From the IMG/VR virus record IMGVR_UViG_3300025909_000005: DNA of 64,000 nucleotides; one strand, 5' to 3'. A model generated the notes under the pieces. The model searched no databases and was not told the origin of the DNA. It was given only the letters and a program-made list of their open reading frames with translations. Below, one piece after another: positions 4,993 to 10,543 of this stretch (positions are counted from its first letter, which is position 1; each line of letters starts with the position of its first letter). The position numbers and the translations under genes were made by a program. The DNA is from a virus. Its lineage: Duplodnaviria; Caudoviricetes.

Positions 4993-5447
4993 ACTTCCCT
5001 ACCATCGCCATGATCCAAGAAGCGGTTGCCACGCGTGCTGGCATCATTCCGTTCCTGGCAGATGGGCGCGCGCTGTTCTTCGTGTCGTCAGATCCTTCGT
5101 ACGGCGGGCCAGATCCTGCGATTGCGAAGGGGCGAGTTGACCAGGGAGAGACAGTCGTGCAGGCAGCCATTCGTGAGGGAGCTGAAGAGCTCGGCCTTCG
5201 TCCAAGCAACTTTGCAGGCAAGCCTTTCCTCGGCTGGTCTGGCTCGGTTGGCGGCCTTCAGGCAACGTATGAGATGGCCGTCTACTGTGTGCAGGTCAAG
5301 GATGAGAAGGCCTTCAGCAAACCAGGTCACGAGACAGAGCGCACAGTTTGGTACACGCGGGAAGAATTTGCAAAACACGGCCGCCGTTCACACCAGGCAA
5401 TGGCGAATGCAGCCTTCGATAAGATTGACGCGCGCCTTCGAAAATAA
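4989..5447 (+). CDS. NUDIX hydrolase
   Basis: Nudix box KGRVDQGETVVQAAIREGAEELG. Confidence 0.85.
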   Translation: MNFPTIAMIQEAVATRAGIIPFLADGRALFFVSSDPSYGGPDPAIAKGRVDQGETVVQAAIREGAEELGLRPSNFAGKPFLGWSGSVGGLQATYEMAVYCVQVKDEKAFSKPGHETERTVWYTREEFAKHGRRSHQAMANAAFDKIDARLRK

Positions 5448-5469
5448 ATACAGAACAGAACAACTACCG

Positions 5470-5507
5470 GAAATGGGGTCCTGTTCTACGTGGCAGGACC
5501 CCATTTC
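5470..5507. terminator. 14-bp stem-loop, probable terminator
   Basis: gaaatggggtcctg / caggaccccatttc. Confidence 0.65.
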
Positions 5508-5509
5508 TG

Positions 5510-5538
5510 TTTACAGGACTTCTCTTTCAGGTTATAAT
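5510..5538 (+). promoter_or_regulatory. Sigma70-like early promoter
   Basis: TTTACA-17-TATAAT. Confidence 0.8.
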
Positions 5539-5544
5539 CAGACT

Positions 5545-6000
5545 ATGCATGATACAGACGAATCAGGTTACGAAAAGCGAGCCCGAGCTGGGCTGATTCC
5601 CTACATGCGTGGGGAAGATGGCCAGCTCAGCTACCTCATGATGGTCAGCTCCGACCCAAAGTTCGGAGGCCCTCGTCCGATGATCTCGAAAGGGAAGATC
5701 GAAAAGGGTGAGACCAAGCTGGAGGCAGCGGTCCGTGAAGCGGAAGAGGAACTCGGCTTCAAGATGCGAAATGCACGGGGCAACCTGGTGCAGATCGCCG
5801 AGGAGCGGGTGACGCTGCATTCGGGCGCCTATGACCTCGCGGTCTATGGTGCTGAGATCATCGACAAGTACGACTTCGACAAATGGTGCGACGAGACGGA
5901 ATACGTCGTATGGATGACCCTGTCGGAGTTTCGAAACAAGGGTCGCCGAGACCACGTGAAGTACGTGGAAAAGCTAGAAAATATCGTGAGGACATCATGA
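5545..6000 (+). CDS. NUDIX hydrolase (paralog of 4989-5447)
   Basis: RARAGLIPY start; KGKIEKGETKLEAAVREAEEELG; start placed at ATG 5545 after the promoter. Confidence 0.85.
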   Translation: MHDTDESGYEKRARAGLIPYMRGEDGQLSYLMMVSSDPKFGGPRPMISKGKIEKGETKLEAAVREAEEELGFKMRNARGNLVQIAEERVTLHSGAYDLAVYGAEIIDKYDFDKWCDETEYVVWMTLSEFRNKGRRDHVKYVEKLENIVRTS

Positions 6001-6614
6001 GCAGGATCTTGACACTTGACGCACAGGGACAGCCACACAGGTGGGTCTCCTACGAAGACGCAATCGTTTACCACGCAAAGAACCTGGTTGCTTGGCAGCT
6101 GGGCGAAGGCGAAGGCGACGTCATGTACCGTGGCGGTGAGAACCGCATCACTGGCCTGACGTCGACGATCACGACTGCACCGATCATCGCCGTGAAGGGC
6201 GAGACAGGCAAGCGCGCGTACAAGGTTCCTTCGCTTACGAACCGTGAACTGTTCCGGCGTGACCGTCACCTGTGCGCGTACTGCGGCAAGGTCTTCTCAG
6301 ACCTGCGTCTGACGCGTGACCACATCATCCCGCAGTCGAAGGGTGGTAAGGACACGTGGATGAACGTGGTCACAGCTTGCGAGAGCTGCAACCACAGGAA
6401 GGACGACCACATGCTCGAGGAAATCGGCATGAAGCTCCTGTACGTGCCGTACACGCCGAACAGGGCTGAAGCGCTCATCCTGGAAAACAGGAACGTTCTC
6501 GCCTGCCAGATGGAGTACCTCAAGTCATTCCTCCCAGACCACTCGCGGGTGTGGGACGACATGAGGGACAAGGAAATCGCTGCGAAGCCGACACGTCACT
6601 CCTTCTACCAGTGA
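5997..6614 (+). CDS. HNH endonuclease (McrA-like, zinc-binding)
   Basis: RELFRRDRHLCAYCG...LTRDHIIPQSKGG...WMNVVTACESCNHRK. Confidence 0.9.
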   Translation: MSRILTLDAQGQPHRWVSYEDAIVYHAKNLVAWQLGEGEGDVMYRGGENRITGLTSTITTAPIIAVKGETGKRAYKVPSLTNRELFRRDRHLCAYCGKVFSDLRLTRDHIIPQSKGGKDTWMNVVTACESCNHRKDDHMLEEIGMKLLYVPYTPNRAEALILENRNVLACQMEYLKSFLPDHSRVWDDMRDKEIAAKPTRHSFYQ

Positions 6615-6749
6615 TCTCAAGCGCCATCACCGGCGCTTCTGCCGGAGCCATCTTCGCATCAGGGCAACGCCTTGGTGTAGTGGTGGCTTCGGCCATTTTG
6701 ACCGCAATTTTGAACTGCTACTGTTTTCACCTTTCTAGAAAGAAGCACC

Positions 6750-7316
6750 ATGGATCTTGAGCAACGAATCGCTACCATCGTCGAGCGCACGCGGACATTG
6801 TGGCTCATCTTCGCTCTTGCCCTGTCAGCAGTCGTCATTGGCTTCTGCCCGCCATGGGCTTGGATCCTACTCCTTCCAGCCTTCTACCTCACGTACTACG
6901 CCGCCCTCGTCATTGCGACCCTCGTGCTGGCGTCGCAGGTGACTGCGGAGGAGTTCCATGAGAACGAGAGGCAACAGCAGGAAATGCGAGAGCGCGTGCA
7001 GCAGCTCGACCCCGATGCTCTCGACGAACTCAACGCGTACCTCGACACGGGCATCAAGGAGCCTGACGAAAAGCTGCTGAAGCTGATGGAGAAGGCAGGA
7101 CTCACGGAGGTTCAGATCAACCCGATCGAGGAGCACTCCGAACCGCCATTCGGCTTCTTCGATGGCAAGCCGCTCTACGACTGGATAGTGCTGAAGGGTC
7201 AGGGCCGATTCGAGTACGCTGGCCTGAAGCAGGACTTCGGCAAGGTCTGCCCCAAGGGGAAGATCTGCGCTGACATCGATGGGATCGTGTACATGCGCGA
7301 TCAGCAACCTGCGTAA
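6750..7316 (+). CDS. Hypothetical membrane protein (2 TM)
   Basis: 188-aa ORF with two hydrophobic helices. Confidence 0.7.
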   Translation: MDLEQRIATIVERTRTLWLIFALALSAVVIGFCPPWAWILLLPAFYLTYYAALVIATLVLASQVTAEEFHENERQQQEMRERVQQLDPDALDELNAYLDTGIKEPDEKLLKLMEKAGLTEVQINPIEEHSEPPFGFFDGKPLYDWIVLKGQGRFEYAGLKQDFGKVCPKGKICADIDGIVYMRDQQPA

Positions 7317-7356
7317 AGTTGATGCAAACTGCGCGTTCAGCGCTTATAATGCATAT

Positions 7357-7860
7357 ATAGATTGATGCTACGGCAGAAACCGCTAGCACATTGAGTGGGT
7401 CCCTGGAGACCCACAAAGAACTAAGCGACCGAAAGTTAGACGATTATCTTGCAGATACGTTGGTGTCCCCGGACATCATGTTACCCGTCCAACATCTCTT
7501 TGTCGCCCTTTTCTCAAGTTCTAATTTCAACCCCAAACAATCGTCTCACTGACGAACCGCCGCGACTTGGTTATCCATTCTACGGCAACCTTTCATTGTC
7601 CTCGGATGATGACGTGCATCGAGATACGTTAACTCGGTTAGGTGCCTGTGCCGAATTGCAGGATATTGCTGATCGAAATCAGATAGGACACCAGTAGCCG
7701 AATCTCCCGGTGTAGGAAGTCATTAACCTCAGGTGCCTGGCCGTCGGTCGGGAATTTCTTTTGAGGCATGTAGGTGAATCAACCGCGAAAGCGGGCCACC
7801 GTTCCGAACTTTCCAAACGCATTTTTTGTTTGTCAGTGAGACACCCTCATTCGCTGCCGT
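7357..7860 (+). ncRNA. Candidate structured non-coding RNA(s), Y-RNA-like, upstream of Ro60
   Basis: 575-nt gap without a credible ORF; TATAAT at 7345-7350; about 10 hand-identified helices including 15-bp 7543-7557/7828-7842 and bulged-C helix 7425-7432/7500-7506. Confidence 0.6.
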
Positions 7861-7891
7861 GTGCAGCCGTACCTCCAGAAAGGAAACACCC

Positions 7892-9508
7892 ATGTCATCT
7901 TCGATCTACACGAACACCGCAGCTTCCCAGTCGACCAAGCCGACCGTCGCCAAGACGCCAGTCACGTCGCCACAGCCGGGTCGCGAAGCCGAGATGTCTG
8001 TGAACAACACGGGTGGCTTCACCTTCGTGCTCACGCACTGGGGTATCCTGGACCGCTTCCTCATGCTCGGCTCCGAGTCGGGCGGCTACTACGTCGGTGC
8101 GCAGGAAACGACCAACATGTCGTTCGACGTGGTCAAGAAGTGCATCAAGGAAGACGGCGTTCGCGTCGTGAACCGTGCGCTCGAGTACTCGCTCGCAGGC
8201 CGTGCGCCGAAGAATGACCCGGCTGTCGTGGCCATCGCCCTCGCGGCGGTGTACGGCAACCCGGAAACCGTGGCGGCTGCCTACGAGGCGCTGCCGAAGA
8301 TCGCACGTACCGGTACGTGGCTGTTCCTGTTCGTCGAAATCCTCGACAAGCTGGGCAAGTGGAACGCCGCTGCAAAGCGCGGCGTGGCGAACTGGTACAC
8401 CAGCAAGCCAATCGACAAGCTGTCCGTCCAGCTGCTGAAGTACCAGCAGCGCAACGGCTGGGCGCACCGCGACGTGCTGCGTCTCGCACACGTGAAGCCG
8501 TCGTCTGACGTCGTGTCGAACGTGTTCCGCTACTCGATCAAGGGCGAACTGCCGGAAGGCGCAAGCGTTCCGCAGGTGCTCATCGACTTCGAGTCGCTGA
8601 AGCGTTCTGAGGACAAGAAGACTGTCCTGAAGCTGATTGAAGGCTCTGACCTGCTCACGTGGGAAATGGTGCCGACACAGTTCCTGAAGGACAAGGACGT
8701 GCTCATGGCGCTTCTGGCGAACATGGGTCTCACGGCAATGATCCGCAAGCTGGGTGCCCTCTCGGCCCACGGCGTGATCGCACCGCTGTCGGAAGGTTCG
8801 AAGCTGGTCATGGCCAAGCTCTCGGACATCGATCAGCTGAAGCGCGCTCGTGTCCACCCGGTCACGATCCTGCAGGCGTTCAAGCAGTACCAGTCAGGCC
8901 ACGGCACGAAGGGTTCGCTGACCTGGTCGCCAGATGCACGTGTGCTGACGTCGCTTGACGACGCCTTCTACGCAGCGTTCGCGCTAGGTGAGAAGACGAA
9001 CGACAACTACCTGCTGGGTGTCGACATCTCGGGCTCGATGCAGGGCGCGAACGTGAACGGTTCTCCGAACCTCACGGCCGCTGAAGTTGCAGCAGTGATG
9101 GCCATGGCCATCGTGCGCAACCAGCCGAACCACTGGATCACTGGCTTCAACACCCGTCTGATCGACCTGCACCTGACTCCGTCGATGCGCCTCGACGCAG
9201 CACTGAAGGCGCTGAACAAGCACTGGGACGGTGGCGCCACCGACCCGTCGAAGACCTACGAGTACGCCACGGCGCACAACATCAAGGTCGACAAGTTCGT
9301 GTCCATCACGGACAACGAAGTGAACTGCGGCCAGCAGCACACGTCGCAGGCCCTCGCCAAGTACCGTCAAAAGTCTGGCGTGGCAGCGAAGAGCGTGATC
9401 ATCGGCACCTCGGTGTCCAAGTTCACACTCGCTGACCCGAAGGATGCCGGCATGCTGGACATCGCGGGCTTCGACAGCGCGGCACCGCAGCTGATCGCAC
9501 AGCTCTAA
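7892..9508 (+). CDS. rsr: Ro60/Rsr-like RNA-binding protein (TROVE + vWA domains)
   Basis: NNTGGFTF, LDRFLMLGSESGGYY, KYQQRNGWAHRDVLRLAHVKP, LTWEMVP, RVHPVTIL, vWA MIDAS LGVDISGSM, ITDNE, MLDIAGFD; SD aaagga. Confidence 0.93.
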   Translation: MSSSIYTNTAASQSTKPTVAKTPVTSPQPGREAEMSVNNTGGFTFVLTHWGILDRFLMLGSESGGYYVGAQETTNMSFDVVKKCIKEDGVRVVNRALEYSLAGRAPKNDPAVVAIALAAVYGNPETVAAAYEALPKIARTGTWLFLFVEILDKLGKWNAAAKRGVANWYTSKPIDKLSVQLLKYQQRNGWAHRDVLRLAHVKPSSDVVSNVFRYSIKGELPEGASVPQVLIDFESLKRSEDKKTVLKLIEGSDLLTWEMVPTQFLKDKDVLMALLANMGLTAMIRKLGALSAHGVIAPLSEGSKLVMAKLSDIDQLKRARVHPVTILQAFKQYQSGHGTKGSLTWSPDARVLTSLDDAFYAAFALGEKTNDNYLLGVDISGSMQGANVNGSPNLTAAEVAAVMAMAIVRNQPNHWITGFNTRLIDLHLTPSMRLDAALKALNKHWDGGATDPSKTYEYATAHNIKVDKFVSITDNEVNCGQQHTSQALAKYRQKSGVAAKSVIIGTSVSKFTLADPKDAGMLDIAGFDSAAPQLIAQL

Positions 9509-9511
9509 ACC

Positions 9512-9538
9512 AAGGAGGCTTCGGCCTCCTTTCTTTTT
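9512..9538 (+). terminator. Rho-independent terminator
   Basis: aaggaggc-ttcg-gcctcctt followed by a T-rich run. Confidence 0.9.
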
Positions 9539-9554
9539 GTAACAGGAAATACGG

Positions 9555-9821
9555 ATGGACCACGCAGAACGTGAGGCGGTGAGGGAGGCGAACCCACCTG
9601 TCGTGGATTGGGCGCACAGCGCTCACGCCTACTTCGACTGGGGTTGGAAGGGCTGCGGCTTCGGCCAGTTCTCCTTCCACTATGACCACGAGACCGAGAA
9701 GTGGTCCTGTTCGAACGAGATGATGGGCCCTGAAGCTTCGCGAAAGCTGCTTCACGCGTTCGCTGACTTCGTCGCTGACAACCTCGCGCCGGTCATTCTT
9801 GAGCAAGACAAGCGAGATTGA
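9555..9821 (+). CDS. Hypothetical protein
   Basis: 88-aa ORF with SD-like aggaaa. Confidence 0.65.
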   Translation: MDHAEREAVREANPPVVDWAHSAHAYFDWGWKGCGFGQFSFHYDHETEKWSCSNEMMGPEASRKLLHAFADFVADNLAPVILEQDKRD

Positions 9822-9856: not shown

Positions 9857-10543
9857 ATGCAAATCTACTGTGACGGCGGTCAAAAGACGCATCAGACCAA
9901 AACCGCACTGACCAAGAAGCGAGCACTGGTCCAGACGATCTCGTTCGGCATTCGTGTCGAGCTCGGTGGTGATGAAAGCGCTGAGCTCTCTGGTCGCCGC
10001 ACAGGTCGCACGATCAATGGGCTGCACGAGCAGTTTGCGTTCATCGAGGCTGTCATCTTCGCAGATGCGCACAACGGCAACACGTTCAACACGGTGATCT
10101 ACACCGACTGCATCGGCCTCACCGGCATGTGGATGTTGCCAACTCTGTCCGAACGCATGAGCACTGGCGTCGCCCGCCGCTTCCGCAAGGACCTCGACCG
10201 ACTCGATAAGTACTACTCGAAGCGCGTTCTCGATCTGGCCTTTGACTACTTCCTCTTCGCGAAGGTGGTGTGGGTCAAGGGACACGACACGAACAAGTGC
10301 ATCGGAAACGCTCGCGCAGACTATCTCGCAACCATGGCCTACGAATCGCGCACTCCGCAGCCGTTCGAGAAGTGGATCAGAGTTGGCTTCGCAAAGTACG
10401 ATGGCAACGGAAAGCATCACCGAGTTTACGCCGCATTCGGCAACACCCTGCAAAAGGAAAAGCAAGTATGGCCACAATCCACCATGACCTCATCGGAACG
10501 ATCCCTGAAGTTGAGTGCTTCCGCAACGGAGTCCTCGAAGTAG
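9857..10543 (+). CDS. Ribonuclease HI-like protein
   Basis: IYCDGG, EQFAFIEA, IYTDC, VWVKGH, GNARADYLA match the RNase H catalytic D/E/D/H/D order. Confidence 0.75.
   Translation: MQIYCDGGQKTHQTKTALTKKRALVQTISFGIRVELGGDESAELSGRRTGRTINGLHEQFAFIEAVIFADAHNGNTFNTVIYTDCIGLTGMWMLPTLSERMSTGVARRFRKDLDRLDKYYSKRVLDLAFDYFLFAKVVWVKGHDTNKCIGNARADYLATMAYESRTPQPFEKWIRVGFAKYDGNGKHHRVYAAFGNTLQKEKQVWPQSTMTSSERSLKLSASATESSK

What the first reader, a model, noticed from the sequence alone, without database searches (positions are those of the whole stretch)
7357..9508. Candidate phage Ro60 RNP with a ~500-nt, multi-domain Y-RNA-like locus
Seen: the largest non-coding gap in the window (7317-7891) follows a TATAAT (7345-7350) and precedes a full TROVE-vWA gene with its own terminator. 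By hand most of it can be paired. Hairpins: 7366-7388, 7395-7414, 7445-7457, 7459-7493, 7569-7590, 7593-7612, 7669-7682 (CGAA loop) and 7773-7800 (GAAA tetraloop). Unit 1 (~7425-7513) is closed by GCGAC[C]GA / UUGUCGC. This has the bulged-C, G.U, A-U geometry of the vertebrate Y-RNA Ro site (GUC[C]GA/UUGAC) and is followed by CCUUUUCU. Unit 2 is closed by a 15-bp helix, 7543-7557 / 7828-7842, containing GACGAA (bacterial GNCGAA consensus) and enclosing about 270 nt. CGAA recurs six times. Known: Ro orthologs are typically encoded beside ~100-130-nt Y RNAs, many with tRNA-like domains. Here I see no T-loop, and unit 2 is ~300 nt. Inference: a novel oversized or tandem Y-RNA class acting as a scaffold, decoy or RNA-repair RNP during infection.
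Basis: partly seen in the sequence, partly recalled or inferred. Interest (0 to 1): 0.88.

Follow-up and report, generated by a model that had tools for sequence, protein, structure and literature searches.

The report
Tandem phage Y RNAs, one oversized
The 575-base gap in front of this T4-like phage's Ro60 gene encodes two conserved structured RNAs with a Y-RNA-type Ro60-docking stem, one of ordinary size and one about 300 bases long, so it is a real but enlarged variant of a known phage Ro60/Y-RNA module.

Summary
Window 7892-9508 is a full-length Ro60 gene (TROVE plus vWA). The gap before it carries two conserved RNAs.

- **Unit 1 (7425-7506) and unit 2 (7543-7842)** recur upstream of Ro60 in about 35 related metagenomic phage loci, with Ro60 identity down to about 46-55%.
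- **Shared closing stem:** both are closed by N5-C-G / UU(U/C)-N5', a 7-bp helix with one bulged C and a G.U pair, then a second helix ending in GG-UUAUC. Compensatory changes are abundant: 98.7% of cells paired in the unit 1 stem and 91% in the unit 2 stem.
- **Unit 2 core:** two core hairpins covary strongly (90% paired, against 24-44% in slid controls).
- **Expression:** contigs from four metatranscriptome studies lie wholly inside unit 2.
- **Paralogs:** in two relatives the same stem module also sits in tRNA arrays. One copy there carries a YrlA-type tRNA-like domain.
- **Family membership:** the window RNAs match neither Rfam YrlA nor metazoan Y_RNA.
- **Leader hairpin:** the hairpin at 7850-7869 before the Ro60 ribosome site repeats the same bulged-C duplex in permuted form. 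It is a possible autoregulatory operator.
GACGAA is not the conserved motif, and the 7459-7493 helix is unlikely.

Earlier notes of this scan cover only this same genome. Verdict: a new variant of a known kind; Ro60 binding is untested.

The parts
7345..7350 (+). -10-like box TATAAT, putative promoter of the RNA-Ro60 transcription unit
   Evidence: Invariant TAnAAT in the 6-sequence alignment. A TA(T/G)AAT or TATAAAATA box lies 27-85 nt upstream of unit 1 in most relatives. The consensus scan did not call a full -35/-10 promoter here.
7366..7414 (+). Two 5' leader hairpins (7366-7388 and 7395-7414)
   Evidence: Present in the MFE fold. Stems differ by compensatory changes in L001, L003, L015 and L016; a single hairpin occupies this place in the other sub-clade (sequences).
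7425..7506 (+). Unit 1, small Y-like RNA. P1 = 7425-7429 with 7502-7506; bulged C7430; G7431.U7501; A7432-U7500; upper stem 7435-7442 with 7486-7493; UUAUC 7444-7448. A pyrimidine tail follows at 7507-7514.
   Evidence: Model R1 scores 53.5 bits, E 2.8e-12 here and matches 30 or more relatives. The stem is 98.7% paired, with 5 of 7 pairs changed on both sides. MFE fold.
7543..7842 (+). Unit 2, ~300-nt ornate Y-like RNA. P1 = 7543-7557 with 7828-7842; bulged C7558; G7559.U7827; P2 = U7567-G7570 with C7813-A7816; UUAUC 7571-7575; variable 5' domain 7576-7640; three hairpins with YCGAA loops (7645-7662, 7669-7682, 7689-7712); GUAGG 7712-7716; variable region 7717-7798; CCGAACUUU 7804-7812.
   Evidence: P1 is 91.2% paired over 34 sequences. 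P2 is 95.9% paired, and GG>GA covaries with CC>UC. The second and third hairpins are 90.4% paired, covariation score 0.624. z = -3.53. RNA contigs lie at 7558-7818, 7566-7835, 7589-7765 and 7668-7820.
7850..7869 (+). Ro60-leader hairpin UUC-GCUGC-CGUGU-GCAGC-C-G. It has the same bulged-C/G pairing duplex as the Y stems, but is closed by a loop at the far end.
   Evidence: Alignment A7. Of 32 sequences, 29 have a 5/5 stem; among those 29 the 5' flank reads UU(U/C) and pairs with the G after the bulge in 28. The motif occurs once in the 64-kb window. It is kept next to Ro60 where ORFs are inserted.
7880..7886 (+). Shine-Dalgarno-like AAGGAAA of the Ro60 gene
   Evidence: Read from the sequence. 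AAGGA/AGGAG is conserved in relatives.
7892..9508 (+). Ro60 (Rsr) gene, 538 aa
   Evidence: Pfam vWA_Ro60 E 2.7e-44 and TROVE E 3.5e-23. PDB 2NVO E 2.8e-95, 9NEN 5.5e-94, 1YVP 1e-90, full length.
9512..9541 (+). Intrinsic terminator after Ro60
   Evidence: 8-bp stem with 5 G-C pairs, followed by TCTTTTTGTA.

Best explanation
One transcription unit runs from a -10 box at 7345 to the terminator at 9512. It encodes two leader hairpins, two tandem Y-type non-coding RNAs and the phage Ro60 protein.

Both RNAs are closed by pairing of their 5' and 3' ends. The closing helix has 7 bp, a single bulged C and a G.U pair (N5-C-G-A / U-U-N5'). An asymmetric internal loop and a second helix ending in GG-UUAUC follow. 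This matches the layout of the Ro60 docking site on vertebrate Y RNAs.

Inference: phage Ro60 binds this stem on each RNA, which stabilises the processed RNAs. The differing loop domains give each RNP a different partner or activity. Unit 1 (about 82 nt) is a minimal Y RNA. Unit 2 (300 nt) carries a conserved multi-hairpin core (three hairpins with YCGAA loops, joined by AUAUUG, AUAGGUUACC and GUAGG) that most likely tethers or regulates a host factor such as an exoribonuclease, as known Y RNAs do with PNPase.

A third copy of the bulged-C duplex, as a hairpin 10-20 nt before the Ro60 ribosome-binding site, may let Ro60 repress or stabilise its own mRNA.

Shown: conservation, covariation, linkage to Ro60, and RNA-library contigs confined to unit 2. 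Inferred: Ro60 binding, processing, the effector and autoregulation.
For: - **Ro60 protein:** it is full length and intact.
- **Selection on the gap:** the upstream 188-aa gene is only about 25% identical in relatives, while blocks of the gap keep 76-80% DNA identity.
- **Unit 1 stem:** 36 sequences, 98.7% paired, 5 of 7 pairs with changes on both sides, G.U kept in 32 of 33, 0 of 500 shuffles as good, slid controls far lower.
- **Unit 2 stem:** 34 sequences, 91.2% paired against 34-54% when slid. The G after the bulged C pairs with U (28) or C (6) in 34 of 34.
- **Unit 2 P2:** 95.9% paired, with a perfect GG>GA / CC>UC switch.
- **Unit 2 core hairpins:** 90.4% paired; covariation score 0.624 against at most 0.115 in slid controls.
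[quoted passage not shown] The Ro60-contacted 5' strand reads GGUCCGA (PMC4201824).
- **Paralogs:** the same stem module occurs 4 and 5 more times in the two near-complete relatives' genomes, inside tRNA arrays. One copy matches Rfam YrlA over its full length (39.1 bits, E 1.4e-5, below the gathering score of 69) and holds a T-arm-like GGGUUCGAUUCCC.
- **Copy number:** the unit 2 core is single-copy and found only next to Ro60.
- **Expression:** contigs from four RNA libraries of four studies lie entirely within unit 2 with no loose ends. One library shows nothing else on 3 kb.
- **Precedent:** Thermus phage phiLo Ro60 binds two Y-like RNAs encoded upstream of its gene and engages host PNPase (PMC12135203).
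Against: - No binding data exist for this protein and these RNAs.
- Rfam YrlA and metazoan Y_RNA models give no match even at E <= 10, so assignment to the class rests on the stem geometry and on linkage.
- The bacterial GNCGAA motif is not conserved here.
- At 300 nt, unit 2 is far outside the 100 +/- 20 nt usual for Y RNAs.
- The upper stem of unit 1 is only about 62% paired in the model-based alignment.
- The RNA evidence comes from assembled contigs. They show no strand, ends or abundance, and could include DNA carry-over.
- The 5' domain of unit 2 in this window differs from the consensus of relatives: it lacks the GUUGAAAGAC hairpin.
Confidence: 0.75

Rival explanations
1. The region is purely a cis-acting 5' leader of the Ro60 mRNA (a riboswitch-like or autoregulatory element), not a source of free RNAs.
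For: There is no terminator between unit 2 and Ro60. The spacer between the units has no promoter-like box. A conserved Ro-site-like hairpin lies next to the ribosome site.
Against: In L007, L008, L030 and L047 open reading frames lie between unit 2 and Ro60, while the small hairpin stays with Ro60. The same stem module sits in tRNA arrays far from Ro60. RNA-library contigs stop inside unit 2 and do not run into the coding region. No riboswitch family matches.
Confidence: 0.08
2. The RNAs are real structured phage RNAs, but the shared stem is a processing or stability module (for example for tRNA-array maturation) and not a Ro60 docking site. Linkage to Ro60 would then be functional only indirectly.
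For: Stem modules abut tRNA genes with gaps of 0-3 nt in relatives. There is no match to the curated Y RNA models.
Against: About 35 loci keep both units directly upstream of Ro60 across 46-100% protein identity. The geometry equals the published Ro60 site, including the bulged C and the G.U pair (PMC4726728). One paralog is YrlA-like, and YrlA is a known Ro60 ligand (PMC4201824).
Confidence: 0.12
3. The gap encodes small proteins (the 53-aa and 82-aa ORFs at 7391-7552 and 7449-7697).
For: These ORFs exist in the window.
Against: tblastn against relatives gives nothing better than E 0.03. The longest ORFs in relatives range from 20 to 92 aa in different frames. Substitutions preserve base pairing, not reading frames.
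Confidence: 0.01

Closest known systems
Thermus phage phiLo Ro60 with Yrl1 and Yrl2 (PMC12135203)
   Same: A phage Ro60 gene is preceded on the same strand by two Y-like RNAs. There, EMSA showed binding to Ro60 and formation of complexes with host PNPase.
   Different: The phiLo RNAs were delimited by a CGAA motif and single-sequence folding. They are small and have no reported covariation. Here the stem is a covarying bulged-C helix, and the second RNA is 300 nt with a conserved multi-hairpin core. The host is a different kind of phage (T4-like, probably jumbo).
YrlA / YrlB of Salmonella, Mycobacterium smegmatis and mycobacteriophages (Rfam RF02553; PMC4201824)
   Same: Ro60-linked RNAs on the same strand, often more than one per locus. 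They are modular: a Ro60-binding stem plus an effector domain. A YrlA-like paralog with the same stem exists in a relative's tRNA array.
   Different: No tRNA-like domain is present in either window RNA; the positive control is. The conserved 5' motif is RACCGA with a bulged C, not GNCGAAN0-1G. Unit 2 is about three times the length of the 114-position Rfam YrlA model (RF02553).
Vertebrate Y RNAs (PMC4726728)
   Same: The lower stem is formed by the two ends: a 7-bp helix, a single bulged C followed by G.U and A-U, extra bases on the opposite strand, an upper stem, then a variable loop. The 5' strand CCGA...GGUUAUC resembles my recollection of hY1 (from memory, not tested).
   Different: The U-A pair before the bulge is flipped to A-U. 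There is no Pol III context or La tail function. The Rfam Y_RNA model does not match.
Deinococcus radiodurans Yrn1 in the Ro60-Y RNA-PNPase (RYPER) complex
   Same: It serves as the working model: the stem binds Ro60 and the large loop domain tethers an exoribonuclease (as summarised in PMC4201824 and PMC12135203).
   Different: No sequence or model similarity was found. The effector of unit 2 is unknown.

Membership tests
Y RNA (Ro60-associated non-coding RNA class) | The 5' and 3' ends pair into a conserved helix of about 7 bp with a single bulged C and a bulge on the opposite strand | tested here: met
   Unit 1: (98.7% paired; the internal loop after the stem has 2 nt on the 5' strand and 4-6 nt on the 3' strand). 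Unit 2: (91.2% paired, bulged C invariant).
Y RNA (Ro60-associated non-coding RNA class) | Bound by the Ro60 protein | not testable with these tools
   No RNA-protein test is available here. It needs EMSA or RIP.
Y RNA (Ro60-associated non-coding RNA class) | In prokaryotes and phages: encoded next to the Ro60 gene on the same strand | tested here: met
   Both units lie upstream of Ro60 on the + strand in the window and in about 35 relatives.
Y RNA (Ro60-associated non-coding RNA class) | Small size, about 100 +/- 20 nt | tested here: inconclusive
   Unit 1 is about 82 nt (met). Unit 2 is 300 nt in the window and 221-395 nt in relatives (not met).
YrlA (Rfam RF02553) | tRNA-like domain (T-arm and D-arm) recognised by the family covariance model | tested here: not met
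   No match at E <= 10 on 7250-7950 and no ARAGORN hit. The model does detect YrlA in phage Sparky and in L056.
YrlA (Rfam RF02553) | GNCGAAN0-1G motif near the 5' end | tested here: not met
   The conserved motif is RACCG(A/C). GACGAA in window unit 2 is not conserved in relatives.
Metazoan Y_RNA (Rfam RF00019) | Match to the family covariance model | tested here: not met
   No Rfam match of any family at E <= 10.
Large ornate phage RNAs held in Rfam (such as GOLLD and ROOL) | Match to a family covariance model | tested here: not met
   No match at gathering score on the window, at E <= 10 on the gap, or on 15 relatives.
Ro60 / TROVE protein | TROVE (HEAT-repeat ring) domain followed by a vWA domain, full length | tested here: met
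   (both Pfam domains above their cut-offs). (residues 21-535 align to 2NVO, 9NEN and 1YVP).

The most novel reading that the evidence does not exclude
Unit 2 would be the founding member of a class of large (about 220-400 nt) ornate Y RNAs. It would combine a Ro60-docked stem with a conserved three-hairpin YCGAA-loop core that recruits or blocks a host RNA-decay or repair factor during infection. The Ro60 mRNA would carry a circularly permuted copy of the same docking duplex beside its ribosome site, so that free Ro60 (not titrated by Y RNAs) feeds back on its own translation. Together with the stem modules released from tRNA arrays in relatives, this would make a phage-encoded multi-Y-RNA network around one Ro60.
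Probability: 0.3. Interest if true: 0.8.

Novelty: new variant of a known kind. Interest (0 to 1): 0.62.

Why it matters
Ro60 and Y RNAs are conserved from bacteria to humans, yet what decides the job of each Y RNA is still open. This clade offers a natural series built on one docking stem: a minimal RNA, a 300-nt ornate RNA and, in relatives, tRNA-like versions. All come with deep covariation, which makes the link between loop domain and function directly testable.

The vertebrate-type bulged-C site in a phage also bears on how old that recognition mode is. A docking-site mimic in the Ro60 leader would be a simple, testable case of Ro60 autoregulation. The module itself (a phage Ro60 gene with upstream Y-like RNAs) is already known, so the gain is a new family and an unusual size, not a new principle.

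Tried and rejected
**Searches that found nothing useful**
- Rfam at gathering score on the whole window, at E <= 10 on the gap and on 15 relatives. The only hit was one tRNA in L049.
- DNA search of the gap against 50,697 phage records: no match.
- The best Ro60 in that phage collection is only about 37% identical, in actinophages.
- The Ro60 scan of genome contigs found no relative.
- The window's own genome is not held.
- The motif scan GACCGAWHGG...GGTTATC of IMG/VR found 2 stretches, one of them already known.
- The scan GGAACCG-N9-10-GGTTATC returned 118 or more stretches. Only 3 of the 80 that were fetched are genuine by R1, so the pattern is too weak for a census.
- R1 does not detect the Y RNAs of phage Sparky or of the most distant Ro60 loci.

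**Steps not done or not informative**
- A covariance model of full-length unit 2 was not attempted: 300 positions exceed the calibration limit. Its stems were counted by script instead.
- MAFFT plus RNAalifold on full unit 2 recovered only P1, P2 and fragments.
- Pfam finds nothing in the ORFs inserted in L007, L008 and L002, nor in the upstream 188-aa protein.
- Review PMC10870794 is not held.

**Sequencing runs**
- The RNA contigs do not cover unit 1 or 7843-8134. This is not evidence of absence.
Full report
**What is there.** The window is part of a T4-like phage. It carries long-tail-fibre genes, an HNH endonuclease, a NUDIX hydrolase and an RNase H-like gene. It is held only as a metagenome-type record; no whole genome is available. 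Near-identical DNA occurs in rhizosphere metagenomes. Positions 7892-9508 encode a 538-aa protein with Pfam TROVE and vWA_Ro60 domains. This protein aligns over its full length to Deinococcus Rsr (2NVO, E 2.8e-95), human RO60 (9NEN) and Xenopus Ro60 (1YVP). A clean intrinsic terminator follows at 9512-9531. The 575-nt gap 7317-7891 has lower G+C than its flanks. It folds better than shuffles on the + strand only (z -2.54 against -0.90). It has no tRNA and no Rfam match, even at E <= 10.

**Relatives.** Ro60 searches of IMG/VR and JGI metagenomes gave 10 plus 41 loci with 33-100% protein identity. Several lie on contigs of 257-375 kb. The gene upstream of the gap is only about 25% identical in the nearest relatives, while blocks of the gap keep 76-80% DNA identity. 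Selection therefore acts on the non-coding sequence itself. No ORF in the gap is conserved.

**Two modules with one kind of stem.** Almost every locus shows the following signature twice: a 5-nt helix strand, C, G, 9-10 nt, GGUUAUC, a variable stretch, UU(U/C), then the complementary 5 nt.

*Unit 1 (window 7425-7506).*
- A covariance model built from 27 sequences (R1) found it in 30 or more loci, including loci not in the seed. It matched once in the window.
- On the resulting alignment, the stem (5 bp, bulged C, G.U, A-U) is 98.7% paired.
- Five of its 7 pairs change on both sides, and the G.U pair is kept in 32 of 33 sequences.
- No shuffle of 500 reaches the observed covariation. Sliding the partner strand drops pairing to 40-57%.
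- The upper stem (7435-7442 with 7486-7493) is less well aligned (about 62% paired), but it shows U.G to C-G exchanges.

*Unit 2 (window 7543-7842).*
- The closing helix is 8-27 bp long and differs in sequence in every lineage.
- Counted from the bulged C outward in 34 sequences, it is 91.2% paired, against 34-54% when slid.
- The G after the bulge always pairs, with U in 28 sequences and C in 6. The observed 341 paired cells compare with 208 +/- 9 in shuffles.
- The GG of GGUUAUC pairs with the CC of a conserved UCCGA near the 3' end (95.9% paired). GG>GA switches occur together with CC>UC in 6 of 6 cases.

This layout is a seven-pair helix with one bulged cytidine, extra bases on the opposite strand, an upper stem and then a variable loop. 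It is how the Ro60 site of vertebrate Y RNAs is described (PMC4726728). The Ro60-contacted strand GGUCCGA (PMC4201824) corresponds here to GGAACCGA or GCGACCGA.

**Inside unit 2.** The 3' half is conserved. Three successive hairpins have loops containing YCGAA: window 7645-7662, 7669-7682 and 7689-7712. They are joined by AUAUUG and AUAGGUUACC and followed by GUAGG. Next come a variable region and CYGAAAUYU, just before the P2 strand.
- A model of the second and third hairpins (R2) matched 32 sequences.
- Those hairpins are 90.4% paired, against 24-44% in slid controls. Ten of 11 pairs change on both sides, and the covariation score is 0.624 against at most 0.115 in controls.
In the single sequence it is a modest enrichment: 7 against about 3-3.9 expected.
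- The 5' half varies between sub-clades. Most relatives have a rod-like hairpin capped by GUU-GAAA-GAC; the window has different hairpins there.
- Unit 2 alone folds with z = -3.53.

**Is it a Y RNA family member?** The Rfam YrlA model works as a control. It finds the tRNA-like core upstream of Ro60 in Mycobacterium phage Sparky. It does not match the window RNAs, and neither does the metazoan Y_RNA model. Conversely, R1 does not match Sparky or the most distant Ro60 loci. The window RNAs are therefore not YrlA.

A decisive link came from the relatives' whole genomes.
- R1 finds 4 extra copies in one near-complete 350-kb genome and 5 in another of 336 kb.
- All of them lie inside dense tRNA arrays, on the tRNA strand, often abutting tRNA genes.
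- One copy (L056 2948-3064) matches YrlA end to end (39.1 bits, E 1.4e-5, below the gathering score). It carries a T-arm-like GGGUUCGAUUCCC within the same stem.
- The stem module is thus shared by a YrlA-type RNA, which is a known class of Ro60 ligand.
- The R2 core is single-copy and found only next to Ro60.

**Expression.** Logan contigs of four metatranscriptome runs from four studies were laid on 6700-9700. Each run has a contig wholly inside unit 2: 7589-7765, 7668-7820, 7558-7818 (the deepest, 9.8) and 7566-7835. Each contig aligns over its full length with no loose ends. One run shows nothing else in the 3 kb. Three runs also have pieces of the Ro60 coding region, partly from diverged relatives. 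Contigs cannot give strand, ends or level, and DNA carry-over is possible. This is therefore a hint, consistent with a stable RNA of about 300 nt, and not proof.

**Transcription unit.** A TAnAAT box precedes unit 1 in most loci. Some read TATAAAATA or TATAAATA, which from memory resembles T4 late promoters. The spacer between the units is 13-41 nt, pyrimidine-rich and without such a box. No terminator lies between unit 2 and Ro60. The simplest reading is a single primary transcript that is processed. This is inference.

**A third copy of the duplex.** Directly before the Ro60 ribosome site lies a hairpin (window 7850-7869; UUC-GCUGC-loop-GCAGC-C-G).
- Of 32 sequences, 29 have a perfect 5-bp stem. 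Stem variants include GUUGGC/GCCAAC, GUUGAC/GUCAAC, GCUGU/ACAGC and GCUAU/AUAGC.
- Among those 29, the 5' flank reads U, U, U/C, and the base next to the stem pairs with the G that follows a bulged C in 28.
- Strand for strand, this is the same local duplex as the Y stems, (R)C-C-G opposite UU(U/C)-G(Y). Here, however, the helix is closed by a loop and the G.U side opens toward the mRNA.
- The motif occurs once in the 64-kb window.
- It stays attached to Ro60 in loci where ORFs separate unit 2 from Ro60.
- I read it as a candidate Ro60 operator. I give about one chance in four that it mediates autoregulation. It could instead be a processing or stabilising hairpin.

**Comparison and novelty.** Ro60-linked Y-like RNAs are known in more than 250 bacteria and 22 phages (PMC4201824). 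Thermus phage phiLo Ro60 binds two Y-like RNAs encoded upstream of its gene and engages host PNPase (PMC12135203). A review of jumbo phages notes TROVE proteins in a subset of them (PMC7824862). The module is therefore known. Three things are new:
- a stem family with vertebrate-like bulged-C geometry, distinct from YrlA;
- a conserved, covarying Y-type RNA of about 300 nt with a multi-hairpin core;
- the permuted site in the Ro60 leader.

I file it as a new variant of a known kind. The earlier notes of this scan concern this same genome read in overlapping windows, not other DNA. They agree with the two-unit reading.

Noticed in passing
L056:984-6300 (-), L057:844-3770 (-), L058:779-6647 (-): Two related jumbo-phage genomes carry 4-5 extra copies of the Y-type stem module inside dense tRNA arrays (9-21 tRNAs per 4.6-7.5 kb). 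The copies lie on the tRNA strand, often 0-3 nt from a tRNA gene, which suggests release by tRNA-processing enzymes. One copy is YrlA-like.
   Followed up: partly
L007:2608-2955, L008:2625-2951, and the matching stretch of L030: A conserved ORF of about 110 aa (no Pfam family) is inserted between unit 2 and the Ro60 leader hairpin in one sub-clade. L047 has a different ORF at the same place.
   Followed up: partly
L046:100-650: A distant Ro60 locus (42% identity) has four tandem units of the form GGGUCGRA-N8-GGUUAYC upstream of Ro60. One holds a T-arm-like GGGUUCGAGUCCC. Neither R1 nor Rfam detected them at threshold.
   Followed up: no
window 7640-7648 and 7731-7739; 7712-7716 and 7770-7774: AGGUGCCUG and GUAGG each occur twice within unit 2. 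This suggests a partial internal duplication of the hairpin-GUAGG module in this lineage.
   Followed up: no
window 6750-7316: The 188-aa gene upstream of the RNAs has no Pfam or PHROG family. It is only about 25% identical in relatives that keep the RNAs and Ro60 well conserved.
   Followed up: partly
window 5026-6614: A NUDIX-hydrolase-like ORF (5026-6000) overlaps the start of an HNH-endonuclease ORF (5883-6614) by about 118 nt. The true starts were not resolved.
   Followed up: no
window 9857-10543: An RNase H-like gene (Pfam just below its cut-off; PHROG RNase H, E 5e-8) lies two genes downstream of Ro60. A link to the RNP is possible but untested.
   Followed up: no
window 7643, 7657, 7802: The T>C differences seen in RNA-library contigs are the same variants found in the near-identical metagenome copies L012 and L013. 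They are strain variation, not editing.
   Followed up: partly
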